Shown here: positions 18,758 through 45,600 of the stretch, one piece after another
Numbering within the stretch: the first letter of the stretch is position 1
How the letters are laid out: the number at the start of each line of letters is the position of its first letter
Program-made: the position numbers and the translations under genes
The notes under the pieces: model-generated
Databases searched by the model: none
Seen by the model: the letters and a program-made list of their open reading frames with translations, nothing else
What the model was told of the DNA's origin: nothing
Origin: Schmidtea polychroa
Lineage: Eukaryota
Assembly (NCBI GenBank): GCA_044892525.1
Contig: CM097887.1
Coordinates: forward strand, 53,196,001 to 53,260,000
Direction of reading: 5' to 3'
DNA length: 64,000 bases

Positions 18758-18840
18758 AAAATTAGAAATTGTAAAATATTAAAATGTATCGGTTATTGTA
18801 GCCGTGTTTTTTTTCGCAAAACAGATTTTTATTTTATATA

Positions 18841-24648: not shown

Positions 24649-24852
24649 NNNNNNNNNNNNNNNNNNNNNNNNNNNNNNNNNNNNNNNNNNNNNNNNNNNN
24701 NNNNNNNNNNNNNNNNNNNNNNNNNNNNNNNNNNNNNNNNNNNNNNNNNNNNNNNNNNNNNNNNNNNNNNNNNNNNNNNNNNNNNNNNNNNNNNNNNNNN
24801 NNNNNNNNNNNNNNNNNNNNNNNNNNNNNNNNNNNNNNNNNNNNNNNNNNNN
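24649..24852. other. Assembly gap (204 N)
   Basis: N run; it hides the left junction and the first 20 bp of LTR1. Confidence 1.
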
Positions 24853-25642: not shown

Positions 25643-25660
25643 TGGTGAGCCCGACGTGAT
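25643..25660 (+). promoter_or_regulatory. Primer binding site, tRNA-Trp
   Basis: TGGTGAGCCCGACGTGAT begins 3 nt after the LTR end. It is 17/18 identical to the classical tRNA-Trp PBS TGGTGACCCCGACGTGAT. Confidence 0.9.
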
Positions 25661-25744
25661 CAAGTCGGCAGTGAATATTGTGGAAAAGTGAAAAGAGAAA
25701 ATTGAAAATAATTGAAAGTTGAATATAATTGCCAAGATATAAAG

Positions 25745-25895: not shown

Positions 25896-26106
25896 ATTGA
25901 ACAAATTGTGAAGTTGAAATAAAAGAGTGAAAGCTAAAAGATATTGAAATTAAGTTGTGGAAAAGTTACAAAAATTTATAAAAACTATTATTGGAAATTA
26001 ATTCAAAATTAAAACAAAAGGTAAAGTTAAAAATTGTAATTTTTTAAAATTTAGACAAGAAACAGTTGTCCAAGAGAAATTATACAATCTAAGAAGTAAA
26101 AAACAC

Positions 26107-29100
26107 TTGGAAAATATGGCGACGAGCAACTCAAATATCAATGAACAAATCTCAGTGTCTACTACTCAAGCGAACAATGGAAATGATTATGCCAGTTGTC
26201 AAAAGTTACCAGTTGAGCAATATGGAGGAGATCCAGTCCAATTTGTTGACTTTATGGCAGATTACTACATGTATGCCACAGCTTATGGATGGAGCCAAGC
26301 AACTATGGTACAACGTCTACCATTATATTTAAAAGGAGCTGCGCGAGAGGCTTGGCAACAGATTGACAAACGACCTATAGCAAATGATTGGACAAGATTG
26401 AAAGATGCATTGGCAGCCAAGTTGATTGGAGGAGATATAAAGAGAATGATGCGCCAAAAGTTCTACAGTCGAGTGCAAAAGCCCGAGGAATCCATAAGTG
26501 AGTTTGCTTATCATTTAACCACTCTTGCAGAGAAAGCGTTCGAAGTAAAGCCAGATCAAGAAGAAGTAGCAAAGCAAGTCAAAGAATTACTTCAGGACCA
26601 ATTTTTGACAGGAGTCAAGAAAGAAATCAAAAAGGCTTTATGTTTTGTTGATTTTACAAATTTTGATGACTTGATTAGAAAAGCCATGAGAATTGAAATG
26701 AATCTTAAAACGACTCAGTCAAAGGCGGAATCATTTGCGATTATCAATGAGCCTCGAGATAGATCTATAACCCCAGTCAGCGATAACTTGCTTCAAAGAT
26801 CAACCAGTCCATCTCCCAAGTTCAGAGTGAAATTTGAACAAAGAAAGTCAACAGACAGTCCAAATGAGGAAAGAGAAAGAACTCTACAATGCAGTCATTG
26901 CCAGAGAATGGGTCATCACATAAATCAATGCTGGTTTAAAAATAACATTCGAAGAAGCCCTAGTCCGGTTCAGTGTGATTACTGTCAAAGAAAAGGACAT
27001 AGCAATAGCCAATGTTGGTTCAAAAATAACGAACAGCGTAGTCCAAAGGGAATGCGGTCAGAATGGCTGAAAAGTAATGGTGAGAAAAGTTTTAACAGAA
27101 CGAATATCAGTAACCAGAGAACTAATGATAACATACAATGCTATAATTGTGGAAGGAAAGGACATGTCACTCGAAATTGTTTTGCAAGATCCAGATCTCT
27201 ATCAACATCACCCTCACCGCAAAGAGACAGAGTTAACTTACAAGGCCAAATCCAATGTCATTCCTGTAGAGGCTATGGACATATGGCTAGATCTTGTCCA
27301 AAGAGTAATAATATATTTCAAAGGCCGATATTAAAGAAGACGAGATTTCAGAAAGACAAATCGCAATCTGACAATATAGCTTTTGCGCAAACAGATGATT
27401 TTAACGAGAGGATTGAAAATGAGATGAAGCAGATGAGTAGACGCTTGGATCGATTAATGTGCAAATTCGAATCGGACGAAGAATTGAGTAACCACATGAT
27501 GTATGAGTCGCAATCAAAAGGATCAGAGGCAGATTCTAAAGAGAAATTGGATAAAGAAGACATAGAAAGAGAAAAAGTAACAATGATTATACTGAGGATC
27601 AACAGATTTATTAAAGAGAGAGCAACAGAAACATCTAAAGTAATCTCATCGCTAAAGGAATTGAGTCAAATGACAATGAGCATACAAAATTTGAAAAATG
27701 TAATTGAGTTATGTGCCGATTATTATGATACCAATTTAAAAGATGAAAAGGAAATTGAAAATGTGATGCAAATATTTGCGAAAACGTATCGAGAAAGTAC
27801 ATGGTTAGATTTTATTTTAATTAATGTTTTAGATGAAAATGAGAAAGAAGTAGCTTGCATTCGGTGTGAAGCAGGAGATTGTGTAGATGATTTAAAGAAT
27901 AGATTAGAAGAAAATAATGGGAAACAGATAATAGAATTGAAGTTTAAAAATCGATGCTTACGCAATGATGAGTTTTTAATTGATTGTGGTTTTATACCAG
28001 GAAATAAAAATAAAGTGATAGCAAAAATGACAAGACGTTATGAAAATGTAAAAAGCGATCCACAGAAAATTGTAAATGAGCTGAGAGAAGCTTTTGATGA
28101 GTGGAATAAAAATGCAATTGATGAAAAGTTGAAATTAGTAGAGGAAACGGAATTTGACGAAAATAGTAAATTAGAAATTGTAAATGTAGTACGTCCATAT
28201 GTATATAAAAACTCGAAATATAAAGAAATATTAAAAGGTTTATTACGAAAATTTGGAAAAGAGATTAGAGAGACCAGGATAGAATTGAAACCATTTGTAA
28301 TAGCGTTAGATTATAAAAATGAAGGAGAAATAGAGTATATAGAAGAACATTGGTGTACCAAGGTTGGTAAATTGCGAAAGAGAGCCGCTGAAAGAATGGG
28401 AAAGGATGGAATTATTCAATTGATATTTAAAAGTGAAGAATTAGATGACGATGAATATTTATACGATTGTGGGTTTATACCTCAAGAATTAGATGTAGAC
28501 GGATATTTATGTTCAGATACAGGATATTCACTAAATTATGTAATAGTAATTAAAAATCAGATATCAAATAAAGGATATGAGTCCGACAGGTCAAATGATG
28601 AGATAGAAAGGGATAATGAAAATGAAAGAAGAGTTGAAAATGAAGGTGTACTAGATAACAAGGACATAGGAACTAATGATAAAGATAAAGGTATAATAAC
28701 AGAAGTATTAAAGGAAGGGCAAGAAACCAAAAGTGAAGTGAATAGTGAAATAAAGACTAAAAAGCCTAGAACTTTGTATGAAATAAAAAAGAGCCTGGTG
28801 AAGTCAGAATTAGAAGTGGGTGAGACAAAAGAGTTATTAAAGAATTTAGATAAATTAATATATCCAATGTTCGAAATAAAATTGAATACAAAGTACGAAT
28901 TGGGAGACACAGTGAATGAAATGGAAAAGAAACTTCCTAGTGTTATGCAGAGATTTGGTGAAAATGATGACTTTTGTAATAGAGGGGTCATGAAAACTTT
29001 GACGAAAAATGGAATTGATAAAGAAGTAGTACTAACAAGCTTAACATATGCAGTTTTAGAGATAGGAGCTCATAAGATAATGGAATCAGATGAATTAGAG

Positions 29101-32100
29101 AATTTGATAGATGCAGCTGCTCGAGTTTTAAATGAATATTTAATGAATTGGATAAAAAGGAATGGAGGTTGGACCAAACTGGTAAAAGTGCTTACGATAA
29201 ATGAAAATAACGAAATTAATATACCCCATAAATCGCTAAATGGGAGAGTTAGCCCAATATTGAGAAAAACGATGGTATTTCCATGGGTAATGTTTATGAT
29301 AATTGTTTTGTGCGCAATAATTACCCAGACAACCTGTATGACTGCATTTGATTGTTCACAAACGGAAATGGGAAAAATTTATTCGGTAGTAGATGTGTCA
29401 GAATGTTCGGATGCATACCCGAGAAAACTAAAGGTTGAAAAAGATGTAAAATATCATGTATATCAAGAGTCTGATTTAAGACGAACGAAGGTTCGAGAAT
29501 GTATAGTCAAAAGTACCACATTTATATTTTATTGTTGGAAGTGGAGCCATACTTCATTGATAAAGATGTATACAATCCCAAGGCCAGTGGAAGTTATGCC
29601 AGAAAATTGTTTAGCAGCATTTCAAACAGAAGAATTGAAAATAAGTTCGAAAATTAAATTGAAGGCAAAAATAAATCATAGGACGAGAGAAACGGTGGTT
29701 ACGAAAGGATTAATGAAGCAAGACGGAGATTGTGAAGGGGAACCGTACAAAGTCAGTGGTAAAATTATTCAAAAAGCAGTAGTGATAGAAGAATATCTAA
29801 CGGAATTGAGAGAATTTGAAGGAGCTTTTGATGATGATACGGGGAAGTTACAGACCCACCCATTTTGTAATATGAAACAAAATAACTGTCAAACGGGGGG
29901 ATCAATTCTTGTTTATGAAGTAAAAACTAATGTATGTAACTTAGCGCATTTAAAAACGATGAATTTCAAAGAAATTAGTGGAGAGCAGTTTAGGGAAAGG
30001 CCTGACAATATTAATGTAAATTATGGAGTAAATATGACAATCAGATCAACGCCCGTTTGGACAAGAAAAACAGCGACTGTATTAATGTCGATAATTCCGA
30101 TGGACGCCATGCGTTTTATATTAAAGGAAGTTACCAATAAATGTGGTCAGACGGTATACTCCACAAATTACAAAGGAGTTTACGTATCAACAGTAAGAGT
30201 ACAGGAAGCTAAAACGAGAATTCATACGGGTGATATTAAATTAACCCATTACTTTAACAATAAAATTGATTACTTATTTCATTATAGTCAGAACACCATG
30301 GAGAATATCTATCGAGAAATAATCTTAAATGATTGTAAATTAAATAAAGAAATACTTCGAAATCGAATGGCAATGGCCATCACAAACCCAAATTTGGTTG
30401 CACCCATGTTAATATCAGAAAATGGAGTATTTGCGAGAATCTTCGGAGAAGCTTTATATAGTTATAAATGCAAGGAAGTGTCAGTAAAAATAATGAAATA
30501 CGAAAAATGTACTAATGAATTGCCAGTTAGCGTCGATGGGAAGATGCGATTTATGGAACCAATAACACGGATATTACTTGACGAAAACACAAAACCAAAA
30601 TTGCTCCAGTGCAATAGATTGCTAGCCCCGTTATATCTTTTGGCACCAGACTCTTGGGTAGCATTACCCGATTACCGAGGAGTTAGAACTCCAGATAAAT
30701 TGGAATTAATCAATTTAGAGTATTTAGTGAACTTTACATCCCTAAATAAAATGGCACAACTAGGTCTCTACGCAAGCGAGGATATAGAAGAAGCTCAAAG
30801 AAATTTATTATTTCCATCAAAGAAAGAACGGGTGATATCAGAAATGATTGATACAATATTACCAAACGGAGAGAGTAAAGTTAATTATGAATATCTCCTA
30901 ACGCCAGATCATTTCAAAAAAGCAACGTACAAAACGATGGAAAAGATTTGGGGAAAATTTATGTTCTTAGGACAAGCGTGTGCTGGTTTGATTGGCATCT
31001 ATGTGATCGTAGTAACAATAAAGGTGATACTATCTCAAATTTTATCTGCTCATAGAATATATAAAATATCCGGATGGTCGTGGAAAATAATTATTGGTTG
31101 TATTCCGTTTATAGCAAGATTTTTTATTACTCATCATCAATATAAAGAAATGGAGAATGTGAGAGCACAGTTAAAAACGGATCAAAAGAGTGAAGAATCC
31201 TTGTGTGAATCGAGGGATAGAAATAGTGGCAATAACACCAACAATGACAATGGCAGAAACGAGCAAATGTATTTTAGAAAAGAAATAATGAAAAGCGAGG
31301 TAAAACCAGAGTCACGGTGCCTACTAGAACAGATGCCAAAACTTACAGGAATCGACACTCTCTCAAAATGGTATACACCGGTATTCCTTCCAACAGCACC
31401 AACATATCTAAGTGAAAGGCTAAAAGAAATGAAACCAGTAGAACATATTAAACTAGAAGCTGAAAGGATTGAACCAACAAGTGCCGAAATAGAACGGAAA
31501 AACATGCTCGGATTACCATGTAGTTATGCGTTGATGACAATAGGAAATAGAGGCAAACAACCTCGAACAAATATACTATTTAACGAGAGAAAGGTCAAAG
31601 CCTTGTTAGACTCCGGTTCCAGTCATACTATAGTGTCAGATAAACTGTTGACAAGGGAAGAGAGAGCAAAGATGAAACCGACGAATAAAATTATTAAATC
31701 AATGTCTCACAATGTACTGAATATAATCGGGAAGCTAGAAGTCAAATTAATTATTGGTAATCAAGAAATAACACATTATGTGTCAGTAATGAGTAAAAGC
31801 CCTGTTGAATGTCTAATTGGTATGGATGTTATGGAGCAACTGCGAGGAATTGCGCTGGATCTGACAACAGGAAAATTAATAAAGGGACAATTAGATACAG
31901 TTGCAAATAAACCAAGAGAAGTTGTTTTAAATCAAACGTTGGAAATACCAGCAAGAAGCGAAATAATATGTTATGCTAGTGTAGCAAACACGTCAGATGA
32001 CGAATGTGTTTTCGAACCCAGTCGAAAACTAGTAGAGAAATACGAATTGCCAATGTGCGACGAGATAGTACAGGTAAAAGATCAGGCAGTCCCAGTGAGA

Positions 32101-35100
32101 ATGGCTAATCTTAGCACAAAATCTATCCAAATGAAACCTAACACGAAGTTAGGAAAGTTAATGAAATTTAAAACAGAAGAAGCCCAAAAATTACCGAGAA
32201 ACATTAAAATTTATAGAAAACCACAAGTGACGAGCAATGATTTGACAGACGCACAAAAACAACAGTTTATGGCATTATTAAAAAAGTACAAAAGAGTATT
32301 TGCAAAGCACGAGTACGATTTGGGACTTACCCAGGTGATCGAACATGAGATACCACTACTCGATGAAACTCCTATTAAATTACGACCGTATAGAATCCCT
32401 TATATACATCAAGAGGAAAGTGATAGACAGATAAAAGCGATGAAAGAGTTTGACATAATAAGAGACAGTTCATCACCATTCTCATCCTCAATAGTAGTAG
32501 TCAAAAAGAAAGACGGCGATTTACGGTTTTGTGTGGATTATAGAAAATTGAATCAGGCTACAAGAAAAGACCCCTACCCTATTCCAGTTCCACCGGAAAT
32601 GTTTGATCAAATGGGAGAAGTACAATTCATCACAGTAATCGATTTGAATAAGGGATATAATCAATTTAAAGTAAAAGAAGAAGATAGAAGGAAAACGGCA
32701 TTTTCAGATGGTAAAGGTTTGTACGAATTCAATGTGTTACCATTTGGCTTAACGGGAGCGCCAGCCACGTTCCAGCGAGGTATGAATTTTGTATTAAGAG
32801 ACATCCCACACGCATTAGTTTATATTGATGATATAATAATATTTTCGAATAATTTTCAGGAACATTTGGAAGATGTAGAAACAGTATTCCAAAGATTGTT
32901 AAAGGCGAATTTAAAAATAAAACCCTCAAAATGTGAATGGGGGAAATCAGAGGTAGTCTATGTTGGTCATATTATATCCCGAAGAGGATTACAGCCAAAC
33001 CCAGAAAATGTAGAAAAAATTAAAAATTATCCAATTCCAAAAAATGTAGATCATGTTAGACAATTTCTCGGATTAGCCAGTTATTATAGAAAATTCATTA
33101 AAAATTTTGCGCATGTAGCACAACCCCTGAACATATTATTAAAAAAGCAGGCTCAATTTAAATGGACAAAAACACAACAGGAAGCGTTCGAATCGTTGAA
33201 AGAAAGTTTGATTAAAAAACCAATATTGAGATGTCCAAATTTTAAAATACCATTTATCCTAATGACAGATGCGAGCAATTTTGCGTTGGGCGCAGTGCTA
33301 GGACAACAGGTTGAAGGAGAAAGAGATCACGTTATCGCATATGCGAGTAGAACTTTGAAACCGCATGAAAAGAATTATTCTACGATTGAAAAAGAAACGT
33401 TGGCATTAGTTTATGGAATAACTACATTTCGACAGTATTTAGTTGGGAGAAGATTTGTTGTCTTTACGGACCATAACCCTTTACAATGGCTCATGAAGCA
33501 TAGAGATTCAACAAGTAAGTTGATTAGATGGTCAATCGCACTACAGGAATATGATTTTGAAATCAAATACCGTACGGGTAAATCAAATGCAAATGCAGAC
33601 ACACTGTCGAGAATCCCTGAGGAAAATAATAATAATAATGAAAAAACGAACTATAATGATACAATATTTATGGTAATTAAATCAGCAAATAATATAAAGG
33701 AATTACAATATGATCAAGAAAATGATGAGGAACTAAATCAATTACGAAAAAATGCAGTAACAATTAAAAAGGAGAGTGATTGGAAACATATTGTTGAGGA
33801 AAAACATAAATATATTATCCACGAGGGTTTATTAAAATGTGTAAAAAATGAAAATTTGCTAATTATAGTTCCAGCAAAACATCGAGAAGCATTATTGTTG
33901 ATTTACCACGATGGAGCACTAGGAGGACATTTATCGGCTCGAAAAACATTATCAAGACTGAAATTGAAGTATTATTGGGAGACAATGGAACAAGATGTCA
34001 AACAATGGTGCCATACTTGTAAAGTATGTTTGACAAGACGAAATACAGGAAGGAAAATAAAAGTTCCACTAAGACCTATGCCGGTGCCAGCAGCGCCAAT
34101 GGAAATGACAGCAATGGACATTGTCGGTCCATTGCCGGAAACAATAAATGGCAATAAATATATTGTTGTATTTTGCGACTATCTAACTAAGTGGCCAGAA
34201 GCATATGCCATGCAAAATCAAAAGGCAGAAACAGTTGCAAAAATATTAGTAGAAAACATTATTTTCCGATATGGAGCACCAAAGAAATTACTTACAGATC
34301 AGGGAACGAATTTTCAAAGTGAATTATTTAGTTCGATATCGGAGCTATTTGGTATATTAAAACTTAGTACATCACCATATCATCCACAAACAGATGGCCT
34401 AGTAGAAAGGTTTAACGGAACATTAATTAATATGATATCATCTTATGTAAATCGAAAACAAAGAGATTGGGATTTATTTATCAAACCATGTTTATTCGCA
34501 TATCGAAACGCAGTTAATGAAAGCACTGGTGAAACACCCTTTTATCTTATGTATCTACGGCGAAATAATATGCCAATTGATTTGAAATTTCAAACACCTA
34601 TATCACAGTATATGGATATATCCGATTATAAAGTAATCATGCATGAGAGATTACAGTCAGTGTGGGCTCAAGCTGGTTTAAAAATAAGACATAGCCAAGA
34701 AACGTATAAAGAATCCTACTACAAGAAAGCACATGCTCATAATATTAAAATAGGAGATTTAGTCTATGTGAATAAACCAGAACCAGAAAAGGGCTTGTCA
34801 CCAAAGTTACAACGACCGTTTAAAGGACCGTATATTGTATGTGATACAACAGAAACCAACCTCAAATTACATCCACAGAATAATAAAAAGGCTGGGACAA
34901 TTATAGTTCATGCAAATCGTTGTAAGAAAGTGCCGGCAATGGAGAGTGATAGATATCCATTAAGATCGAAAAAGAACAAATCAGTAGAAGAAAAAGTGGT
35001 CAAGCAAAAAGTTATTAAAAACCCAGTACCCTTAGGATATACCACGAAAGTCTTATTGATAACAACAATGATGCTACTAAATGTTTTGGGAACAAAGGCA

Positions 35101-36261
35101 GGTAGATCTTTTCCAAAGTATGCAATAAAAAGGGTCCCATTATTGGATAAAATTCATATATATTCAACATGTACCCAAATAGTATGGTTTTATCTGTGTG
35201 GGTCAACGGAAGAAATAGAAATAAGTAATCTATTAAATCACTTTAACCCACCTGTAAGATTGAATTTCAATAAAAATATTTTCGTGGCTCGTCAATTAAC
35301 AGTCAATTATGAATACACTTGGCAAATAACAGAGTTACTATTTCAAAATAATAATACAAAAATACGTAATATAATCCAAATTGAAATATTAACAAAAAAT
35401 TTAAACAGTCTGGTTTCAATAGAACCAGTAGTGAATGGAATCGACGTATATTGGGAACCCCACGAATCCCAAAAAGTGAAATTAATATTCCAAAATAATA
35501 TTATCGATACATTAAACATCAGAAAACCCTTTGTCCATTACAATAATTTAAAATTAAATCAAACGTATGATATCGTTGTGCAATATTATGAAAAGCTTTT
35601 GCGGGAAAATGGTACCGAAATCGATAACCAGTGGGTAAAAATTGAGTCTACTCGACAATCCATAAAATTAGAAAATGAACCAAATCGTATTATTTTACGA
35701 TATGATAATCAAAAATGGATAGCCACACGACAAGCGATAACCAATAACAAAGTGGAAATTTATTATTGCGGAAAACTGCAAGCTATATTGCAAGGTAATA
35801 TTACATCTAAAATATTAACATTTCAGCAAATACGTTCAAAGTCAACTTCAAAAATTGTGATTGTAAAGATAAAATATTATCAACGTGCTTTTCATCCCGA
35901 TCATTGGAAAATCGTTCTAGTGGAAAGTAAATCTATTCGAGTACCATTTGATACAGCTGAGGTAGAAAGCTCAAAAAATATGCACAATTCATCAACCAAT
36001 GTGATTCATCAACTCATAAATGACATTAATTCTTCTTTTATTAATGGAACACAAATTCCAAGAAATAAAACTACATTCTCATTATCAAATGATTTTGAAA
36101 ATACTTATGTTATTTTGTCATCTATCATCATCAGTGTGACACCATTTTCCATTATCATTCTTCTCACTCTACTGATTTACTTTCAAAGACTGAACAGACA
36201 ATATGAATGTCAATCCAAGACCTCACAACCTTGGATTGTCTACGAGGAAACATGGGTCTAG
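26107..36261 (+). CDS. Gag-UBL-UBL-Bcl2-like-Env-PR-RT-RH-IN-membrane protein polyprotein, copy 1 (3384 aa; first ATG 26116)
   Basis: Retrotransposon Gag core; 4 CX2CX4HX4C knuckles (26890-27297); WIKRNGGW (29149); signal segment (29272-29337); Cys-rich glycoprotein with TM (29338-31131); LLDSGS (31609); YIDD (32821); TDAS..E..TDH (33268 onward); HHCC, DDE and GPY integrase (about 33850-34940); C-terminal TM (36109-36183). Confidence 0.97.
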   Translation: MENMATSNSNINEQISVSTTQANNGNDYASCQKLPVEQYGGDPVQFVDFMADYYMYATAYGWSQATMVQRLPLYLKGAAREAWQQIDKRPIANDWTRLKDALAAKLIGGDIKRMMRQKFYSRVQKPEESISEFAYHLTTLAEKAFEVKPDQEEVAKQVKELLQDQFLTGVKKEIKKALCFVDFTNFDDLIRKAMRIEMNLKTTQSKAESFAIINEPRDRSITPVSDNLLQRSTSPSPKFRVKFEQRKSTDSPNEERERTLQCSHCQRMGHHINQCWFKNNIRRSPSPVQCDYCQRKGHSNSQCWFKNNEQRSPKGMRSEWLKSNGEKSFNRTNISNQRTNDNIQCYNCGRKGHVTRNCFARSRSLSTSPSPQRDRVNLQGQIQCHSCRGYGHMARSCPKSNNIFQRPILKKTRFQKDKSQSDNIAFAQTDDFNERIENEMKQMSRRLDRLMCKFESDEELSNHMMYESQSKGSEADSKEKLDKEDIEREKVTMIILRINRFIKERATETSKVISSLKELSQMTMSIQNLKNVIELCADYYDTNLKDEKEIENVMQIFAKTYRESTWLDFILINVLDENEKEVACIRCEAGDCVDDLKNRLEENNGKQIIELKFKNRCLRNDEFLIDCGFIPGNKNKVIAKMTRRYENVKSDPQKIVNELREAFDEWNKNAIDEKLKLVEETEFDENSKLEIVNVVRPYVYKNSKYKEILKGLLRKFGKEIRETRIELKPFVIALDYKNEGEIEYIEEHWCTKVGKLRKRAAERMGKDGIIQLIFKSEELDDDEYLYDCGFIPQELDVDGYLCSDTGYSLNYVIVIKNQISNKGYESDRSNDEIERDNENERRVENEGVLDNKDIGTNDKDKGIITEVLKEGQETKSEVNSEIKTKKPRTLYEIKKSLVKSELEVGETKELLKNLDKLIYPMFEIKLNTKYELGDTVNEMEKKLPSVMQRFGENDDFCNRGVMKTLTKNGIDKEVVLTSLTYAVLEIGAHKIMESDELENLIDAAARVLNEYLMNWIKRNGGWTKLVKVLTINENNEINIPHKSLNGRVSPILRKTMVFPWVMFMIIVLCAIITQTTCMTAFDCSQTEMGKIYSVVDVSECSDAYPRKLKVEKDVKYHVYQESDLRRTKVRECIVKSTTFIFYCWKWSHTSLIKMYTIPRPVEVMPENCLAAFQTEELKISSKIKLKAKINHRTRETVVTKGLMKQDGDCEGEPYKVSGKIIQKAVVIEEYLTELREFEGAFDDDTGKLQTHPFCNMKQNNCQTGGSILVYEVKTNVCNLAHLKTMNFKEISGEQFRERPDNINVNYGVNMTIRSTPVWTRKTATVLMSIIPMDAMRFILKEVTNKCGQTVYSTNYKGVYVSTVRVQEAKTRIHTGDIKLTHYFNNKIDYLFHYSQNTMENIYREIILNDCKLNKEILRNRMAMAITNPNLVAPMLISENGVFARIFGEALYSYKCKEVSVKIMKYEKCTNELPVSVDGKMRFMEPITRILLDENTKPKLLQCNRLLAPLYLLAPDSWVALPDYRGVRTPDKLELINLEYLVNFTSLNKMAQLGLYASEDIEEAQRNLLFPSKKERVISEMIDTILPNGESKVNYEYLLTPDHFKKATYKTMEKIWGKFMFLGQACAGLIGIYVIVVTIKVILSQILSAHRIYKISGWSWKIIIGCIPFIARFFITHHQYKEMENVRAQLKTDQKSEESLCESRDRNSGNNTNNDNGRNEQMYFRKEIMKSEVKPESRCLLEQMPKLTGIDTLSKWYTPVFLPTAPTYLSERLKEMKPVEHIKLEAERIEPTSAEIERKNMLGLPCSYALMTIGNRGKQPRTNILFNERKVKALLDSGSSHTIVSDKLLTREERAKMKPTNKIIKSMSHNVLNIIGKLEVKLIIGNQEITHYVSVMSKSPVECLIGMDVMEQLRGIALDLTTGKLIKGQLDTVANKPREVVLNQTLEIPARSEIICYASVANTSDDECVFEPSRKLVEKYELPMCDEIVQVKDQAVPVRMANLSTKSIQMKPNTKLGKLMKFKTEEAQKLPRNIKIYRKPQVTSNDLTDAQKQQFMALLKKYKRVFAKHEYDLGLTQVIEHEIPLLDETPIKLRPYRIPYIHQEESDRQIKAMKEFDIIRDSSSPFSSSIVVVKKKDGDLRFCVDYRKLNQATRKDPYPIPVPPEMFDQMGEVQFITVIDLNKGYNQFKVKEEDRRKTAFSDGKGLYEFNVLPFGLTGAPATFQRGMNFVLRDIPHALVYIDDIIIFSNNFQEHLEDVETVFQRLLKANLKIKPSKCEWGKSEVVYVGHIISRRGLQPNPENVEKIKNYPIPKNVDHVRQFLGLASYYRKFIKNFAHVAQPLNILLKKQAQFKWTKTQQEAFESLKESLIKKPILRCPNFKIPFILMTDASNFALGAVLGQQVEGERDHVIAYASRTLKPHEKNYSTIEKETLALVYGITTFRQYLVGRRFVVFTDHNPLQWLMKHRDSTSKLIRWSIALQEYDFEIKYRTGKSNANADTLSRIPEENNNNNEKTNYNDTIFMVIKSANNIKELQYDQENDEELNQLRKNAVTIKKESDWKHIVEEKHKYIIHEGLLKCVKNENLLIIVPAKHREALLLIYHDGALGGHLSARKTLSRLKLKYYWETMEQDVKQWCHTCKVCLTRRNTGRKIKVPLRPMPVPAAPMEMTAMDIVGPLPETINGNKYIVVFCDYLTKWPEAYAMQNQKAETVAKILVENIIFRYGAPKKLLTDQGTNFQSELFSSISELFGILKLSTSPYHPQTDGLVERFNGTLINMISSYVNRKQRDWDLFIKPCLFAYRNAVNESTGETPFYLMYLRRNNMPIDLKFQTPISQYMDISDYKVIMHERLQSVWAQAGLKIRHSQETYKESYYKKAHAHNIKIGDLVYVNKPEPEKGLSPKLQRPFKGPYIVCDTTETNLKLHPQNNKKAGTIIVHANRCKKVPAMESDRYPLRSKKNKSVEEKVVKQKVIKNPVPLGYTTKVLLITTMMLLNVLGTKAGRSFPKYAIKRVPLLDKIHIYSTCTQIVWFYLCGSTEEIEISNLLNHFNPPVRLNFNKNIFVARQLTVNYEYTWQITELLFQNNNTKIRNIIQIEILTKNLNSLVSIEPVVNGIDVYWEPHESQKVKLIFQNNIIDTLNIRKPFVHYNNLKLNQTYDIVVQYYEKLLRENGTEIDNQWVKIESTRQSIKLENEPNRIILRYDNQKWIATRQAITNNKVEIYYCGKLQAILQGNITSKILTFQQIRSKSTSKIVIVKIKYYQRAFHPDHWKIVLVESKSIRVPFDTAEVESSKNMHNSSTNVIHQLINDINSSFINGTQIPRNKTTFSLSNDFENTYVILSSIIISVTPFSIIILLTLLIYFQRLNRQYECQSKTSQPWIVYEETWV

Positions 36262-36622
36262 TGAGATACATTTATTTTGCATGCAATTATGATATTATAA
36301 TAGTACTGTATTAGTAGTAACTTTTATGATAGTTGTAAAATTTGCACCTTTCAATCAAAGAGAAATATGATTGGCTGAGAGGGATAGAAAAATAAATATG
36401 AACTAAATTTTATGGGAAAGAAAATTTAATAACTGTACATAAGGGGTCGTAAAAATAATTAAAATCAGTTTAATTAATTCAATCAAAAAATTAAGATCTT
36501 TCAAAATTGAATAGGTAAATTTTTATTAATATTTATTATTTATACAGTGATCACCAAGGCAGTGCCCCTGAGGTACTCTACCGTGTTGATCACTTCAATC
36601 TTAAATTCTAACAAATTTAATA

Positions 36623-38065
36623 GTGAATATTTCAGTAATGGAACAAATCCAAAGAACTAGAGCAATTTATGATGGATATTTGAAGATACACCGCAACCAC
36701 GTGGGACAAGATGCCATCACCATCAATGACAACCTGAAAATCCCAAACTACTTGAGGGTGGACGACAGAAAAATGAAAACTCAAATTTTTAAAGTGAGCC
36801 GGAAATCGGTGAAAATAATAGAAGAAGATGAAATCAAGGATGGAAATGAGTACACGCTACACGTGATCAAAGGGAAAGTGGAGGTAATAGACGAACGACA
36901 AAAAGTCTATTGGGAATTACACCAAGGATCATCGTGGAAACTGCAGAAAGAAACCTTGAGGAAAAGGTTGAGAGCATCCAATGAAGATTCAAGAGTTGTT
37001 GTGGAAACACGAAGCCCGAACGAGGAAAATGAAATTCCACAAACCACTTCAAAATTGCCAGATGATCCAACCATGCTTCCAATTACTACAGAAATGCTGA
37101 AAAGAAGATGGTCATTTATTCGAAAAGAAATGAGTTTGGAGGAGATACGGAACCGAATTGTGTTTATGGATGCAGAATATGGAACATCAGAAAATAATAA
37201 AATGATTCCATTGTCAATAGCGATGATGAATTATGAAGGGAAAATAATTAAAAATTCATATTTGACACCAAGAGGAAGATTGCGTCATTTCAATTCCAGC
37301 ATTCATGGTATCACAGAGATTGCCAGTAGAAACCAATGCGACCAGTACACGGAGATGCGAGAAGTGCAAAAACTAACTGTTGGAAAAATTTTAGTGGGAC
37401 ATGATCTTCATGCAGAATTGGAATATTTGAAAATCTGGACAAATCAGTTGTACGGAATTAGGGATTTAGCAACAGCACAGGCACTCCAACTGAAAGGAAT
37501 AACAAGGAAAGGAGAATTCTTTAAACTTAAAACAGTGGTTGAAGAAGTACTCGGAGAACAAACACAAACTGGTATTCACTCAGCATTGGAAGATGTCAAA
37601 AAAGTACGGAGAGTGTACAGGGAAATTGAGAATTTATGGGAAGATGATGTAAAAATCCAGAAAATAGTCCCATCAAAGAAATATTCTTTAGCCGAATATC
37701 AAAAACTTCATGCGATGGACAAAATACCAACAACGAGTGGAACATCCTGTGAGATAGTAGAACAAGTTGATCTAACAATTGAGGAACAAATGGAAATTGA
37801 CGAAGCACCGTTGAAATGGGCAACGGAAGAATATTTGGAGCCGATCAAGGAAAGCCTCGAAATGATAATAAGTTCATCGATCCACAGAATTCCGGCATCA
37901 TTCGAACATGGGCCTATACTTCATTTAGAGAATAGGAAAAGAAAATCGACAACAAAAATCGAAGCCAGCGAATCCATCATGGTGAATGGAATAGTCTATT
38001 ATCGGGAGAAAACATATATCCGCTACAAGAGTGAGGCGGGAGAAATAGAATTAAAAATTGATTAA
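36623..38065 (+). CDS. ORF2, copy 1: REX4/ISG20-like DEDDh 3'-5' exonuclease with N-terminal beta-rich domain (first ATG 36638)
   Basis: VFMDAEYG (Exo I, 37169), IHGIT, ILVGHDLHAEL (Exo II, 37397), IRDL, GIHSALEDV (Exo III, 37577). Confidence 0.9.
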   Translation: MNISVMEQIQRTRAIYDGYLKIHRNHVGQDAITINDNLKIPNYLRVDDRKMKTQIFKVSRKSVKIIEEDEIKDGNEYTLHVIKGKVEVIDERQKVYWELHQGSSWKLQKETLRKRLRASNEDSRVVVETRSPNEENEIPQTTSKLPDDPTMLPITTEMLKRRWSFIRKEMSLEEIRNRIVFMDAEYGTSENNKMIPLSIAMMNYEGKIIKNSYLTPRGRLRHFNSSIHGITEIASRNQCDQYTEMREVQKLTVGKILVGHDLHAELEYLKIWTNQLYGIRDLATAQALQLKGITRKGEFFKLKTVVEEVLGEQTQTGIHSALEDVKKVRRVYREIENLWEDDVKIQKIVPSKKYSLAEYQKLHAMDKIPTTSGTSCEIVEQVDLTIEEQMEIDEAPLKWATEEYLEPIKESLEMIISSSIHRIPASFEHGPILHLENRKRKSTTKIEASESIMVNGIVYYREKTYIRYKSEAGEIELKID

Positions 38066-38332: not shown

Positions 38333-39139
38333 TGTTGGGGTTAGAGCAAAAATAAAATAAATTTCACAGGGTACCAGAAAACAGAACAAAAAATGGTAAA
38401 ATCAATATAAGTACAAAATTAATTAAAATTTAATAAAAATTAAAAATCAATATTGAACGGGGGTATCGGGTATGGTTGAATGCCAAATTGTTAGACGAGG
38501 TTAGAAAGTATAATAAAAATGTAATAGGGTGACCATAGAAAAAGTTAATAAGGAAAAACAAATTAATTAAAATTAATTAATCTGTAATGGAAAGCCCGAG
38601 CCAATGGAAAGCCCGAGCCCATGGGAAACCCGAGCACTGAAGAAAACCCGATGCGCAGTGAGACCCGAGACACCAGATAAGGGAATAACAATTCGGATAA
38701 TAATCGCAGGGTAAATAAATTTAAATAATTGTCGAACCGTTCCAAATTTACTTAGGGTGCCCGGGGAAATAATTAATTTCATTTTGTTAGATAATTGGCC
38801 TCTTAAAAACAGTATAAAAGGAGAGCTTAGAAATGAGCAAGCCGCCATTTGGTCGAAGAGAAAAAGGAAAAATCTAAACAGAAAGTCCAGCAGGGACAAG
38901 TTAAAAGAGGAAAATTTGTGAGTTATAAAGAAGCTAAATCGTACAAGACAAGGTAATTACCCCTTGGGTTTCTTACCTTAGCGAACCAAATTCAAATTGA
39001 GAGAAAGGTGCAAATAGTGACAAATTGTAATTGTGATAAAAAGTGAATAAAGTTATTCTGTGTTGAGTTTTCGTTGATTTGGTAAAACAAGGACACGAGG
39101 AGTCAGAGACAGGACCGACTTACAAGTAAAAACTCAACA
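38333..39139 (+). repeat. LTR2 (shared middle LTR, 807 bp)
   Basis: TGTTG...CAACA termini, preceded by the PPT and followed by the PBS. Confidence 0.97.
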
Positions 39140-39395: not shown

Positions 39396-39606
39396 ATTGA
39401 ACAAATTGTGAAGTTGAAATAAAAGAGTGAAAGCTAAAAGATATTGAAATTAAGTTGTGGAAAAGTTACAAAAATTTATAAAAACTATTATTGGAAATTA
39501 ATTCAAAATTAAAACAAAAGGTAAAGTTAAAAATTGTAATTTTTTAAAATTTAGACAAGAAACAGTTGTCCAAGAGAAATTATACAATCTAAGAAGTAAA
39601 AAACAC

Positions 39607-42600
39607 TTGGAAAATATGGCGACGAGCAACTCAAATATCAATGAACAAATCTCAGTGTCTACTACTCAAGCGAACAATGGAAATGATTATGCCAGTTGTC
39701 AAAAGTTACCAGTTGAGCAATATGGAGGAGATCCAGTCCAATTTGTTGACTTTATGGCAGATTACTACATGTATGCCACAGCTTATGGATGGAGCCAAGC
39801 AACTATGGTACAACGTCTACCATTATATTTAAAAGGAGCTGCGCGAGAGGCTTGGCAACAGATTGACAAACGACCTATAGCAAATGATTGGACAAGATTG
39901 AAAGATGCATTGGCAGCCAAGTTGATTGGAGGAGATATAAAGAGAATGATGCGCCAAAAGTTCTACAGTCGAGTGCAAAAGCCCGAGGAATCCATAAGTG
40001 AGTTTGCTTATCATTTAACCACTCTTGCAGAGAAAGCGTTCGAAGTAAAGCCAGATCAAGAAGAAGTAGCAAAGCAAGTCAAAGAATTACTTCAGGACCA
40101 ATTTTTGACAGGAGTCAAGAAAGAAATCAAAAAGGCTTTATGTTTTGTTGATTTTACAAATTTTGATGACTTGATTAGAAAAGCCATGAGAATTGAAATG
40201 AATCTTAAAACGACTCAGTCAAAGGCGGAATCATTTGCGATTATCAATGAGCCTCGAGATAGATCTATAACCCCAGTCAGCGATAACTTGCTTCAAAGAT
40301 CAACCAGTCCATCTCCCAAGTTCAGAGTGAAATTTGAACAAAGAAAGTCAACAGACAGTCCAAATGAGGAAAGAGAAAGAACTCTACAATGCAGTCATTG
40401 CCAGAGAATGGGTCATCACATAAATCAATGCTGGTTTAAAAATAACATTCGAAGAAGCCCTAGTCCGGTTCAGTGTGATTACTGTCAAAGAAAAGGACAT
40501 AGCAATAGCCAATGTTGGTTCAAAAATAACGAACAGCGTAGTCCAAAGGGAATGCGGTCAGAATGGCTGAAAAGTAATGGTGAGAAAAGTTTTAACAGAA
40601 CGAATATCAGTAACCAGAGAACTAATGATAACATACAATGCTATAATTGTGGAAGGAAAGGACATGTCACTCGAAATTGTTTTGCAAGATCCAGATCTCT
40701 ATCAACATCACCCTCACCGCAAAGAGACAGAGTTAACTTACAAGGCCAAATCCAATGTCATTCCTGTAGAGGCTATGGACATATGGCTAGATCTTGTCCA
40801 AAGAGTAATAATATATTTCAAAGGCCGATATTAAAGAAGACGAGATTTCAGAAAGACAAATCGCAATCTGACAATATAGCTTTTGCGCAAACAGATGATT
40901 TTAACGAGAGGATTGAAAATGAGATGAAGCAGATGAGTAGACGCTTGGATCGATTAATGTGCAAATTCGAATCGGACGAAGAATTGAGTAACCACATGAT
41001 GTATGAGTCGCAATCAAAAGGATCAGAGGCAGATTCTAAAGAGAAATTGGATAAAGAAGACATAGAAAGAGAAAAAGTAACAATGATTATACTGAGGATC
41101 AACAGATTTATTAAAGAGAGAGCAACAGAAACATCTAAAGTAATCTCATCGCTAAAGGAATTGAGTCAAATGACAATGAGCATACAAAATTTGAAAAATG
41201 TAATTGAGTTATGTGCCGATTATTATGATACCAATTTAAAAGATGAAAAGGAAATTGAAAATGTGATGCAAATATTTGCGAAAACGTATCGAGAAAGTAC
41301 ATGGTTAGATTTTATTTTAATTAATGTTTTAGATGAAAATGAGAAAGAAGTAGCTTGCATTCGGTGTGAAGCAGGAGATTGTGTAGATGATTTAAAGAAT
41401 AGATTAGAAGAAAATAATGGGAAACAGATAATAGAATTGAAGTTTAAAAATCGATGCTTACGCAATGATGAGTTTTTAATTGATTGTGGTTTTATACCAG
41501 GAAATAAAAATAAAGTGATAGCAAAAATGACAAGACGTTATGAAAATGTAAAAAGCGATCCACAGAAAATTGTAAATGAGCTGAGAGAAGCTTTTGATGA
41601 GTGGAATAAAAATGCAATTGATGAAAAGTTGAAATTAGTAGAGGAAACGGAATTTGACGAAAATAGTAAATTAGAAATTGTAAATGTAGTACGTCCATAT
41701 GTATATAAAAACTCGAAATATAAAGAAATATTAAAAGGTTTATTACGAAAATTTGGAAAAGAGATTAGAGAGACCAGGATAGAATTGAAACCATTTGTAA
41801 TAGCGTTAGATTATAAAAATGAAGGAGAAATAGAGTATATAGAAGAACATTGGTGTACCAAGGTTGGTAAATTGCGAAAGAGAGCCGCTGAAAGAATGGG
41901 AAAGGATGGAATTATTCAATTGATATTTAAAAGTGAAGAATTAGATGACGATGAATATTTATACGATTGTGGGTTTATACCTCAAGAATTAGATGTAGAC
42001 GGATATTTATGTTCAGATACAGGATATTCACTAAATTATGTAATAGTAATTAAAAATCAGATATCAAATAAAGGATATGAGTCCGACAGGTCAAATGATG
42101 AGATAGAAAGGGATAATGAAAATGAAAGAAGAGTTGAAAATGAAGGTGTACTAGATAACAAGGACATAGGAACTAATGATAAAGATAAAGGTATAATAAC
42201 AGAAGTATTAAAGGAAGGGCAAGAAACCAAAAGTGAAGTGAATAGTGAAATAAAGACTAAAAAGCCTAGAACTTTGTATGAAATAAAAAAGAGCCTGGTG
42301 AAGTCAGAATTAGAAGTGGGTGAGACAAAAGAGTTATTAAAGAATTTAGATAAATTAATATATCCAATGTTCGAAATAAAATTGAATACAAAGTACGAAT
42401 TGGGAGACACAGTGAATGAAATGGAAAAGAAACTTCCTAGTGTTATGCAGAGATTTGGTGAAAATGATGACTTTTGTAATAGAGGGGTCATGAAAACTTT
42501 GACGAAAAATGGAATTGATAAAGAAGTAGTACTAACAAGCTTAACATATGCAGTTTTAGAGATAGGAGCTCATAAGATAATGGAATCAGATGAATTAGAG

Positions 42601-45600
42601 AATTTGATAGATGCAGCTGCTCGAGTTTTAAATGAATATTTAATGAATTGGATAAAAAGGAATGGAGGTTGGACCAAACTGGTAAAAGTGCTTACGATAA
42701 ATGAAAATAACGAAATTAATATACCCCATAAATCGCTAAATGGGAGAGTTAGCCCAATATTGAGAAAAACGATGGTATTTCCATGGGTAATGTTTATGAT
42801 AATTGTTTTGTGCGCAATAATTACCCAGACAACCTGTATGACTGCATTTGATTGTTCACAAACGGAAATGGGAAAAATTTATTCGGTAGTAGATGTGTCA
42901 GAATGTTCGGATGCATACCCGAGAAAACTAAAGGTTGAAAAAGATGTAAAATATCATGTATATCAAGAGTCTGATTTAAGACGAACGAAGGTTCGAGAAT
43001 GTATAGTCAAAAGTACCACATTTATATTTTATTGTTGGAAGTGGAGCCATACTTCATTGATAAAGATGTATACAATCCCAAGGCCAGTGGAAGTTATGCC
43101 AGAAAATTGTTTAGCAGCATTTCAAACAGAAGAATTGAAAATAAGTTCGAAAATTAAATTGAAGGCAAAAATAAATCATAGGACGAGAGAAACGGTGGTT
43201 ACGAAAGGATTAATGAAGCAAGACGGAGATTGTGAAGGGGAACCGTACAAAGTCAGTGGTAAAATTATTCAAAAAGCAGTAGTGATAGAAGAATATCTAA
43301 CGGAATTGAGAGAATTTGAAGGAGCTTTTGATGATGATACGGGGAAGTTACAGACCCACCCATTTTGTAATATGAAACAAAATAACTGTCAAACGGGGGG
43401 ATCAATTCTTGTTTATGAAGTAAAAACTAATGTATGTAACTTAGCGCATTTAAAAACGATGAATTTCAAAGAAATTAGTGGAGAGCAGTTTAGGGAAAGG
43501 CCTGACAATATTAATGTAAATTATGGAGTAAATATGACAATCAGATCAACGCCCGTTTGGACAAGAAAAACAGCGACTGTATTAATGTCGATAATTCCGA
43601 TGGACGCCATGCGTTTTATATTAAAGGAAGTTACCAATAAATGTGGTCAGACGGTATACTCCACAAATTACAAAGGAGTTTACGTATCAACAGTAAGAGT
43701 ACAGGAAGCTAAAACGAGAATTCATACGGGTGATATTAAATTAACCCATTACTTTAACAATAAAATTGATTACTTATTTCATTATAGTCAGAACACCATG
43801 GAGAATATCTATCGAGAAATAATCTTAAATGATTGTAAATTAAATAAAGAAATACTTCGAAATCGAATGGCAATGGCCATCACAAACCCAAATTTGGTTG
43901 CACCCATGTTAATATCAGAAAATGGAGTATTTGCGAGAATCTTCGGAGAAGCTTTATATAGTTATAAATGCAAGGAAGTGTCAGTAAAAATAATGAAATA
44001 CGAAAAATGTACTAATGAATTGCCAGTTAGCGTCGATGGGAAGATGCGATTTATGGAACCAATAACACGGATATTACTTGACGAAAACACAAAACCAAAA
44101 TTGCTCCAGTGCAATAGATTGCTAGCCCCGTTATATCTTTTGGCACCAGACTCTTGGGTAGCATTACCCGATTACCGAGGAGTTAGAACTCCAGATAAAT
44201 TGGAATTAATCAATTTAGAGTATTTAGTGAACTTTACATCCCTAAATAAAATGGCACAACTAGGTCTCTACGCAAGCGAGGATATAGAAGAAGCTCAAAG
44301 AAATTTATTATTTCCATCAAAGAAAGAACGGGTGATATCAGAAATGATTGATACAATATTACCAAACGGAGAGAGTAAAGTTAATTATGAATATCTCCTA
44401 ACGCCAGATCATTTCAAAAAAGCAACGTACAAAACGATGGAAAAGATTTGGGGAAAATTTATGTTCTTAGGACAAGCGTGTGCTGGTTTGATTGGCATCT
44501 ATGTGATCGTAGTAACAATAAAGGTGATACTATCTCAAATTTTATCTGCTCATAGAATATATAAAATATCCGGATGGTCGTGGAAAATAATTATTGGTTG
44601 TATTCCGTTTATAGCAAGATTTTTTATTACTCATCATCAATATAAAGAAATGGAGAATGTGAGAGCACAGTTAAAAACGGATCAAAAGAGTGAAGAATCC
44701 TTGTGTGAATCGAGGGATAGAAATAGTGGCAATAACACCAACAATGACAATGGCAGAAACGAGCAAATGTATTTTAGAAAAGAAATAATGAAAAGCGAGG
44801 TAAAACCAGAGTCACGGTGCCTACTAGAACAGATGCCAAAACTTACAGGAATCGACACTCTCTCAAAATGGTATACACCGGTATTCCTTCCAACAGCACC
44901 AACATATCTAAGTGAAAGGCTAAAAGAAATGAAACCAGTAGAACATATTAAACTAGAAGCTGAAAGGATTGAACCAACAAGTGCCGAAATAGAACGGAAA
45001 AACATGCTCGGATTACCATGTAGTTATGCGTTGATGACAATAGGAAATAGAGGCAAACAACCTCGAACAAATATACTATTTAACGAGAGAAAGGTCAAAG
45101 CCTTGTTAGACTCCGGTTCCAGTCATACTATAGTGTCAGATAAACTGTTGACAAGGGAAGAGAGAGCAAAGATGAAACCGACGAATAAAATTATTAAATC
45201 AATGTCTCACAATGTACTGAATATAATCGGGAAGCTAGAAGTCAAATTAATTATTGGTAATCAAGAAATAACACATTATGTGTCAGTAATGAGTAAAAGC
45301 CCTGTTGAATGTCTAATTGGTATGGATGTTATGGAGCAACTGCGAGGAATTGCGCTGGATCTGACAACAGGAAAATTAATAAAGGGACAATTAGATACAG
45401 TTGCAAATAAACCAAGAGAAGTTGTTTTAAATCAAACGTTGGAAATACCAGCAAGAAGCGAAATAATATGTTATGCTAGTGTAGCAAACACGTCAGATGA
45501 CGAATGTGTTTTCGAACCCAGTCGAAAACTAGTAGAGAAATACGAATTGCCAATGTGCGACGAGATAGTACAGGTAAAAGATCAGGCAGTCCCAGTGAGA

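What the first reader, a model, noticed from the sequence alone, without database searches (positions are those of the whole stretch)
35050..36261. Second type-I membrane glycoprotein fused after integrase, FN3-like, ending in PDZ ligand ETWV
Seen: signal-like KVLLITTMMLLNVLGTKAG, then a beta-rich ectodomain of about 335 aa with 8 N-x-S/T sequons and an FN3-like stretch (IDVYWEP...LKLNQTYDIVVQY). A TM follows at 36109-36183, then a 25 aa tail ending YEETWV-stop. Established: terminal E-T-W-V fits class I PDZ ligands and is the preferred motif of Erbin/LAP-type PDZ domains, and viral proteins use such motifs to target polarity/junction scaffolds. Inference: this could be a receptor-binding partner for the class III fusogen, a captured receptor decoy or a superinfection-exclusion factor. 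It occupies the usual env position.
Basis: partly seen in the sequence, partly recalled or inferred. Interest (0 to 1): 0.8.

Follow-up and report, generated by a model that had tools for sequence, protein, structure and literature searches.

The report
Hidden second membrane protein, planarian retroelements
A retrovirus-like element of a planarian-type genome ends its single giant protein with a second, apparently undescribed membrane protein (predicted fibronectin-type outer part, scaffold-binding-type tail), kept in all five related families examined in this genome, which likely docks the element at contacts between host cells.

Summary
The window holds two tandem copies of a 13.5-kb Burro-like gag-env-pol Ty3/gypsy element, a known planarian kind. 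Its 3419-aa frame ends, after integrase, in a weak signal, about three FN3-like repeats, a stalk, a TM and ETWV-stop. Repeat 2 folds in AlphaFold2 (pLDDT 82.5) and matches FN3 structures (Z about 9); repeats 1 and 3 are weaker. All 5 families examined in this genome end in signal-ectodomain-TM-class I PDZ pattern (ETWV, ETFV, ETRL, ATLV, STLV/SSLV), including the giant Burro type, whose ectodomain looks unrelated. Of 10 integrase-bearing database relatives, 9 share the layout and 4 of those 9 the class I end. The class is conserved, not ETWV, so Erbin specificity is unsupported; 8 sequons (4.9 expected) is unremarkable. Best reading (inferred): an accessory surface protein, cut from the polyprotein, that binds host PDZ scaffolds and places the element at cell contacts. 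Expression, cleavage and binding are untested. The papers searched do not mention it. This scan had one note on a Burro element in this genome, on cleavage motifs, and none on this protein.

The parts
24833..25639 (+). 5' LTR (807 bp; first bases lie under N, start inferred from the 13,500 offset)
25643..25661 (+). primer-binding-site-like sequence (TGG...) just after the LTR; tRNA-Trp type is recalled, not tested
   Evidence: sequence
26002..36261 (+). single open frame, 3419 aa (first Met 26116): gag, zinc knuckles, ubiquitin-like (weak), Bcl-2-like, env, protease, RT, RNase H, integrase, second membrane protein
28912..29172 (+). Bcl-2-like domain (PF00452 E 1.4e-4, below the curated cut-off)
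29269..31272 (+). gB/class III-type env: hydrophobic start at 29269, PF24664 E 2.2e-87, TM at 30976
31555..34869 (+). protease, RT, RNase H, integrase with C-terminal domain
34954..34968 (+). YPLRS motif closing the integrase; Y-x-[LI]-R-[SP] is present after integrase in 15 of 16 polyproteins examined
35047..35106 (+). internal signal-like segment (weak here, stronger in relatives); cleavage inferred
35131..35400 (+). ectodomain repeat 1, FN3-like (weak support)
   Evidence: score 15.1 vs shuffle maximum 14.6, 0 of 40 shuffles, probability 1.8%
35395..35658 (+). ectodomain repeat 2, predicted FN3 seven-strand sandwich
35650..35946 (+). ectodomain repeat 3, similar to repeat 2 (E 3.5e-4) but no direct match to host FN3 (18 of 40 shuffles score as high)
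35947..36105 (+). variable Ser/Thr/Asn-rich stalk, 4 of the 8 sequons; 35% identity A-B over aa 3313-3368
36109..36183 (+). transmembrane helix (KD 2.56)
36184..36258 (+). 25-aa tail ending PWIVYEETWV; class I PDZ pattern ETWV at 36247-36258
36605..38065 (+). ORF2, 486 aa, with a DEDD-type exonuclease domain (PF00929 E 4.9e-5 on 37100-37700)
38333..39139 (+). shared middle LTR (TG...CA), preceded by a polypurine tract
39502..49761 (+). second tandem copy of the 3419-aa frame; the membrane segment is at 48547-49761
51833..52639 (+). 3' LTR, one base different from the middle LTR, followed by a TA run

Best explanation
The segment is the C-terminal module of a Burro-type gag-env-pol retroelement polyprotein, a predicted type I membrane protein with FN3-like repeats outside and a class I PDZ-type tail inside, which likely is cut free, binds host PDZ scaffolds and so places the element's budding and fusion machinery at cell-cell contacts. 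Shown: the layout, its conservation across families, purifying selection, the terminal pattern. Predicted: the FN3 fold of repeat 2. Inferred: four main hydrophobic segments (aa 1090, 1659, 3011, 3370) alternate, so gag/Bcl-2 and pol would be cytosolic and env and this ectodomain luminal; the internal signal would reopen translocation after integrase and signal peptidase would release the protein; a protease cut upstream would free integrase from the signal stub. Because env sits mid-polyprotein it has no natural free C-terminus; this last module would supply one, as the ESSL tail of HTLV-1 Env does. The ectodomain would be an exchangeable adhesion or ligand-binding part.
For: Layout and class I end in 5 of 5 families examined in G000: A ETWV (20 of 20 loci), B ETFV (23 of 24 loci), C ETRL (6 of 7 loci covering the end), D ATLV (4 of 4), E STLV/SSLV (6 of 6), with RT-integrase identity to A of 88, 79, 49, 49%. 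Of 12 database polyproteins found through env, 10 reach integrase, 9 of these 10 have signal-ectodomain-TM-tail and 4 of the 9 end class I (ATTV, TTLV, TSWV, ATFV). Grouping by non-alignable ectodomains gives 5 of 8 lineages class I against a background of 0.027 by composition or 10 of 435 frame ends (binomial 7.5e-7, lineages not fully independent). Last 10 residues 90% identical A-B against 13% just upstream. Repeat 2: pLDDT 82.5, pTM 0.71, seven strands; Foldseek top rows FN3 (E 1.5e-3); VIA Z 9.2 to an FN3 chain, rmsd 2.3 over 79 residues; profile match to 28 host FN3 exons E 1e-4, 0 of 40 shuffles. 8 of the 10 database relatives carry a further retropepsin-like motif between integrase and the signal, fitting a need to cut there. 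Precedent: HTLV-1 Env ESSL binds hDlg at T-cell contacts (PMC3185783, passages); BURRO1 RNA is intestine-enriched and rises in epidermal cells after smedwi-2 RNAi (PMC8532177, passages).
Against: No step of the mechanism is measured. 5 of 9 database relatives lack a class I end (EVFV, YEVV, DALF end hydrophobic; IQRM, KLTK do not). The signal in this copy is weak and has no Met ahead of it; a further mildly hydrophobic stretch after the env TM (KD 1.38 at aa 1691) would invert the topology if it spanned the membrane. The ectodomain is not FN3-like in family D or P0014/P0015, so one adhesion function for all is not assured. Foldseek gave no hit at E <= 0.001 and the top VIA row (Z 9.7) is a bacterial glycan-binding protein, tied with the FN3 rows; a shared fold shows no function. 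All elements examined carry env, so linkage to env could not be tested. The other cargo (Bcl-2, TRAF-like, BIR, ankyrin) points as well to host-signalling manipulation.
Confidence: 0.45

Rival explanations
1. Host-signalling decoy or modulator: a cell-surface mimic of an FN3 receptor (cytokine-receptor or guidance-receptor type) that binds a host ligand or co-receptor, while its tail occupies PDZ, SH2 or WW proteins to blunt stress, immune or death signalling in the cell that expresses the element.
For: These elements carry Bcl-2-like, TRAF-like, BIR and ankyrin cargo; the ectodomain evolves faster than env (58% vs 82% A-B); tails hold 1-10 Tyr in all 14 examined and PPxY in 3 (C, P0014, P0015); fold neighbours include cytokine receptors, DCC/neogenin and Dscam; Atlas leads FNDC9, FNDC5, IL11R at 0.86-0.89 (lead only).
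Against: No host paralogue among the scored matches in G000 (only the best candidates are scored) or among 1.84 billion representatives (3 hits); the fold matches are generic FN3; ectodomains are swapped between lineages while the tail pattern stays.
Confidence: 0.27
2. Virion attachment partner of the gB-type fusogen: the protein is packed into particles beside Env and binds the entry receptor, as class III fusion systems of herpesviruses use separate receptor-binding proteins (recalled).
For: Made one-to-one with Env from the same frame; present in 14 of 15 env-bearing elements that reach integrase (counting E and E2 once); fast-evolving surface fits receptor binding.
Against: Env is 71-82% conserved among A, B, C while the partner changes fold between lineages; a PDZ-type tail acts in the producing cell, not in a free particle; the eLife survey treats most gB-type errantiviruses as three-gene elements (PMC13524379, passages).
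Confidence: 0.17
3. Superinfection exclusion or receptor down-regulation: it binds the entry receptor and removes it through PPxY/PDZ-linked trafficking.
For: PPxY in 3 of 15 tails; type I layout with short trafficking-type tail.
Against: PPxY is absent from this family; hundreds of same-family copies exist in the genome, though these may arise without reinfection.
Confidence: 0.06
4. Membrane tether only: signal and TM hold Pol at the membrane for packaging, and the ectodomain and tail are passengers.
For: Gag and Pol are far apart in one frame, so a tether could aid packaging (inference).
Against: Purifying selection on the ectodomain and a sharp island of conservation in the last 10 residues; class I pattern kept across non-alignable tails.
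Confidence: 0.05

Closest known systems
Burro / GYPSM1 gypsy-like LTR retroelements of planarians (PMC6431247, section 7 read whole; figure not visible)
   Same: One frame with gag, CCHC knuckles, ubiquitin-like, BCL2-like, env between gag and pol, then PR-RT-RH-IN; family D of this genome is the giant type with MATH-like, ankyrin, TRAF and BIR parts.
   Different: This element is compact (13.5 kb, 3419 aa) and has a DEDD exonuclease ORF2; the section names no membrane protein after integrase, no FN3 and no PDZ motif.
GAG-ENV-POL errantiviruses with HSV/gB-type env, Smed_errantivirus_1-6 (PMC13524379; passages and supplement rows seen)
   Same: Same order and env type; the published Smed_errantivirus_2 env fragment differs from family C at about 4 of 251 residues by eye, and Smed_errantivirus_1 is close to A/B.
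   Different: The paper treats GAG, ENV, POL only; 'fibronectin', 'accessory', 'exonuclease', 'Bcl-2' have 0 occurrences in its main text and the tail and ectodomain motifs 0 in 7 supplements.
HTLV-1 Env cytoplasmic PDZ-binding motif ESSL and hDlg (PMC3185783, passages)
   Same: A retroviral membrane protein ending in a class I PDZ ligand, linked to cell-contact sites.
   Different: There the motif is on the fusogen itself; here it is on a separate FN3-type module at the end of Pol.
sORF2 of Drosophila MDG1-group retrotransposons (PMC11952523, abstract and outline)
   Same: An accessory transmembrane protein of a gypsy element tied to cell-to-cell transfer.
   Different: sORF2 is short, FAST-like and replaces Env; this protein is about 385 aa, has a folded ectodomain and coexists with Env.
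Extra ORF3 types of bdelloid LTR retrotransposons: DEDDy exonuclease, TM proteins (PMC5408684, passages)
   Same: DEDD exonuclease and TM cargo downstream of pol.
   Different: Those are separate ORFs; 'fibronectin' has 0 occurrences there.

Membership tests
Ty3/gypsy LTR retroelement | LTRs with TG...CA, PBS, PPT; order PR-RT-RH-IN | tested here: met
Burro-like / GAG-ENV-POL errantivirus | gB-type env in frame between gag and pol | tested here: met
   PF24664 E 2.2e-87 between gag and protease
Burro-like / GAG-ENV-POL errantivirus | BCL2-like and ubiquitin-like cargo before env | tested here: inconclusive
   Bcl-2 E 1.4e-4, below the curated cut-off; ubiquitin E 0.039
Burro proper (giant, over 30 kb, MATH, ankyrin, BIR) | giant size and MATH/ankyrin/BIR cargo | tested here: not met
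   13.5-kb unit without these; family D has them; RT-IN identity A-D 49%
Fibronectin type III fold | seven-strand beta sandwich with Trp in strand B and L-x-x-N/T-x-x-Y before strand F (repeat 2) | tested here: met
   predicted model pLDDT 82.5; Foldseek and VIA FN3 rows, Z 8-9.2; hhalign E 1e-4
Fibronectin type III fold | repeats 1 and 3 have the same fold | tested here: inconclusive
   not folded alone; weak profile scores; whole-segment model failed
Pfam fn3 (PF00041) | HMM score over the cut-off | tested here: not met
   no hit at E <= 1 or 5
Class I PDZ ligand | X-S/T-X-hydrophobic at a free C-terminus (pattern per PMC8393326) | tested here: met
   ETWV-stop; kept in 5 of 5 families
Class I PDZ ligand | measured binding to a PDZ domain | not testable with these tools
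   needs peptide binding assays
Erbin/LAP-selective ligand | W(-1) and E(-3) conserved (TGWETWV is the phage-display Erbin ligand, PMC8393326) | tested here: not met
   W(-1) only in family A and P0010; others F, R, L, T
Type I membrane glycoprotein | cleavable signal, luminal domain, one TM, cytosolic tail | tested here: inconclusive
   hydropathy pattern in 14 polyproteins; net charge after the TM higher than before it in 12 of 14; no signal-peptide predictor on hand; translocation not measured

The most novel reading that the evidence does not exclude
A whole clade of gag-env-pol errantiviruses encodes a two-membrane-protein system in one polyprotein with alternating internal signals, like RNA-virus polyproteins: a gB-type fusogen in the middle and, at the end, an exchangeable adhesion receptor that docks on host junction scaffolds and builds a contact through which the element passes from differentiated cells into stem or germ cells. 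It would be the first retrotransposon-encoded FN3 adhesion protein with a PDZ ligand.
Probability: 0.3. Interest if true: 0.85.

Novelty: new variant of a known kind. Interest (0 to 1): 0.66.

Why it matters
Burro-type elements are among the most abundant repeats of a major stem-cell model animal, yet whether and how they move between cells is open. A conserved surface protein with a scaffold-binding tail gives a concrete, testable handle (localisation, PDZ partner, presence in particles). It also shows that the three-gene picture of gB-type errantiviruses misses a fourth, clade-wide module hidden at the end of 'pol', and implies an unusual topology in which Pol is made tethered between two membrane anchors.

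Tried and rejected
Whole-segment AlphaFold2 on alignment A1 failed (pLDDT 31.5) and was not searched. Pfam fn3, PDB sequence search (0 hits) and BFVD fold search (none at E <= 0.001) gave nothing firm. Word-index searches for the segment: 0 of 2549 candidates among 1880-5984-aa proteins; 1 of 5918 among 99-707-aa proteins; lengths between were not searched this way. The representative search gave 3 fragments: P0002 ends in TM and VTQV, P0003 holds signal and repeats 1-2, P0001 aligns only over repeat 3 and ends differently. Host paralogue: none among the scored matches (103 of 1367, 148 of 853, 150 of 700 candidates); the lists are filled by element copies, so absence is not shown. Expression: no RNA holder listed; only contigs could be laid, and no GT-AG joint into the signal appeared among the joints shown; no pyrimidine-rich acceptor upstream of the signal in A or B (the same scan also found none before ORF2 in A, so it is insensitive). 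Complex prediction of the tail with a host Dlg-PDZ3-like domain (L118): no answer, 0.31 against a mark of 0.34, no evidence either way. dUTPase search found no further element families. The FN3 comparison of other elements' repeats is partly circular, since windows were picked by the signature. Family D ectodomain: no match to FN3 or to A. Papers: searches found none describing this module; Grohme 2018 and Ilinskaya 2010 were not held, Sacco 2022 was not found, Repbase and figures could not be seen, so a prior mention there is not excluded. Target-site duplication could not be checked (left flank under N).

Full report
Setting. The finding lies in an LTR retroelement present twice in tandem (LTR-unit-LTR-unit-LTR, period 13,500); the units differ at 1 base. 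Each unit has one 3419-aa frame and a 486-aa ORF2. Pfam places gag, zinc knuckles, a weak Bcl-2, a Monjiviricetes-type fusion glycoprotein (E 2.2e-87), protease, RT, RNase H and integrase in this order; ORF2 holds a DEDD-type exonuclease domain. This is the layout published for planarian Burro/GYPSM1 elements (PMC6431247, section 7 read) and for GAG-ENV-POL errantiviruses (PMC13524379, passages and supplement rows). A published S. mediterranea env fragment differs from family C of this genome at about 4 of 251 residues by eye, so the host is taken to be a planarian (inference).

Observation. The last 404 residues follow integrase and a YPLRS motif: weak hydrophobic start (KD 1.45), 334-residue ectodomain with 8 sequons (4.9 expected), TM (2.56), 25-residue tail, ETWV-stop. 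The sequon count carries no weight: only NGT is common to families A, B and C.

Conservation in this genome. The segment finds 103 scored matches (of 1367 candidates): 62 of its own family (64-100% identity) and 41 of a sister family B at 51-52%, 40 of which have no stop in the segment. Of the 20 best family-A loci 7 have a stop inside the segment, as expected of ageing copies; 20 of 20 still end ETWV and 23 of 24 B loci end ETFV (two diverged broken loci, L026 and L027, were not in that count). Searching by env, BIR and Bcl-2 rather than by the segment brought three more families. C (3334 aa) has a homologous ectodomain (39% over 329 residues) and ends PPSYYETRL in 6 of 7 loci that cover the end, the seventh ending early. 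D, the giant Burro type, has ankyrin repeats after integrase, then a signal-like segment, a Cys-bearing ectodomain with no detectable likeness, a TM and a tail of about 88 residues ending ATLV in 4 of 4 loci. E (about 3053 aa) has a shorter ectodomain with one FN3-like signature and ends STLV or SSLV in 6 of 6 loci. RT-integrase identity to A is 88, 79, 49 and 49%. Other stretches fetched from the Bcl-2 list were unrelated elements.

Selection. Between single natural copies of A and B the folded ectodomain is 58% identical (dN 0.31, dS 0.90), env 82%, RT 95%, stalk 35%, TM 31%, the 15 residues after the TM 13% and the last ten residues 90%; A-C gives 40% for the ectodomain (dN 0.58, dS 2.1). 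dS is near saturation, so ratios are rough. The segment is a maintained, fast-evolving protein with an island of constraint at its very end.

Beyond this genome. The segment itself finds little: 3 fragments among 1.84 billion representatives, one of which (P0002) ends in a TM and VTQV. Searching with env found 12 polyproteins from unnamed records. Two end before RT, 10 reach integrase, 9 of these have signal-ectodomain-TM-tail and one (P0007) ends earlier. Ends: ATTV, TTLV, TSWV, ATFV (class I, 4 of 9); EVFV, YEVV, DALF (hydrophobic last residue); IQRM, KLTK (none). Grouped by non-alignable ectodomains, 5 of 8 lineages end class I, against 0.027 by composition or 10 of 435 other frame ends (7.5e-7 by binomial; the lineages share ancestry, so this overstates independence). 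Eight of the 10 carry a further D-[ST]-G-S retropepsin-like motif between integrase and the signal; A-E do not.

Fold. The whole segment did not fold. The alignment suggested three repeats. Repeat 2 matches a profile of 28 host FN3 exons (E 1e-4, 54 columns, 0 of 40 shuffles); repeat 1 weakly (0 of 40, margin small); repeat 3 not directly (18 of 40) but it matches repeat 2 (E 3.5e-4) and the repeats of other elements (E 6.6e-4); E's repeat 1 of 40. Folded with the repeats as alignment, repeat 2 gave pLDDT 82.5 and seven strands. Foldseek's best rows are FN3 domains of fibronectin, Dscam and neogenin (E 1.5e-3 to 2e-3, none at or under 1e-3); VIA gives Z 9.7 to a bacterial glycan-binding protein and 9.2-8.0 to mostly FN3 chains. 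The fold is generic and names no donor gene.

The motif. The class I pattern follows PMC8393326 (passages), which also gives TGWETWV as a designed Erbin ligand that binds PSD95-PDZ2 but not PDZ3. W(-1) occurs only in A and P0010, so selection keeps the class, not an Erbin-type ligand.

How it most likely works. Shown: layout, conservation, terminal pattern. Inferred: the four main hydrophobic segments of A alternate, giving cytosolic gag/Bcl-2, luminal env, cytosolic pol, luminal FN3 ectodomain and a cytosolic tail; a milder hydrophobic stretch after the env TM must then not span the membrane. Signal peptidase would release the last module and a retropepsin cut would free integrase. With env in the middle, the only natural free C-terminus on a membrane protein belongs to this module, and it would do what ESSL does for HTLV-1 Env, which binds hDlg at cell contacts (PMC3185783, passages). 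BURRO1 RNA is reported in intestinal and epidermal cells after piRNA loss (PMC8532177, passages), epithelia where junction scaffolds lie (general knowledge). I give this 0.45; a signalling decoy 0.27, given the Bcl-2, TRAF, BIR and ankyrin cargo and Tyr/PPxY motifs; virion attachment 0.17; exclusion 0.06; mere tether 0.05.

Novelty. The element kind is known; the module is not mentioned in the texts searched. Grohme 2018, Repbase, Sacco 2022 and all figures were out of reach. The scan's earlier notes hold one report on a 30-kb Burro element of this genome, about a cleavage motif, and none on this protein. Verdict: new variant of a known kind, interest 0.66.

Noticed in passing
window 24833-52639: Two units in tandem sharing a middle LTR, identical but for 1 base; the only two of 62 family-A matches with the full 3419-aa frame. 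A very recent tandem event or an assembly duplication; not resolved.
   Followed up: partly
window 26002-26116 and 34954-34968: A Y-x-L-R-[SN] motif lies both upstream of the first Met (in a reading frame conserved in A, B, C, E) and after integrase; suggests a non-AUG or spliced start and a cleavage or chromatin-binding motif (likeness to the foamy-virus Gag chromatin-binding site is recalled, untested).
   Followed up: partly
P0005-P0011, P0015, after integrase: A further retropepsin-like domain between integrase and the membrane module in 8 of 10 database relatives; Pfam counts up to three protease-like stretches per polyprotein.
   Followed up: partly
window 36605-38065; L022:2459-3949; L048/L049: ORF2 with a DEDD exonuclease domain in A, with counterparts in B and E; none of 100 aa or more seen on the + strand downstream in the family C locus scanned.
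   Followed up: partly
L037-L038 (G000:C1:10252800-10259300): Giant family D carries downstream ORFs: TRAF-like, BIR-RING IAP-like, coiled-coil ORFs and another signal-plus-TM ORF of 341 aa.
   Followed up: no
L053-L060, L063-L066: Multi-copy Bcl-2-like frames lie beside Polinton/Maverick-like genes (ATPase, integrase, capsid-like, polymerase-like by eye), a second mobile family with Bcl-2 cargo.
   Followed up: no
P0014, P0015: The post-integrase ectodomain is a short Cys-rich domain unlike FN3, with PPxY tails: a third ectodomain type in the same slot.
   Followed up: no
window 9914-10420 (+), 59689-61054 (-), 1297-1704 (+), 63110-63625 (+): Host exons of an FAD monooxygenase and a nuclear receptor (zf-C4), and hAT and piggyBac-type transposase remnants.
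   Followed up: no
window 18062-22517: Long inverted repeats (212 nt at 94%; 69 nt at 93%), probably a DNA-transposon remnant.
   Followed up: no
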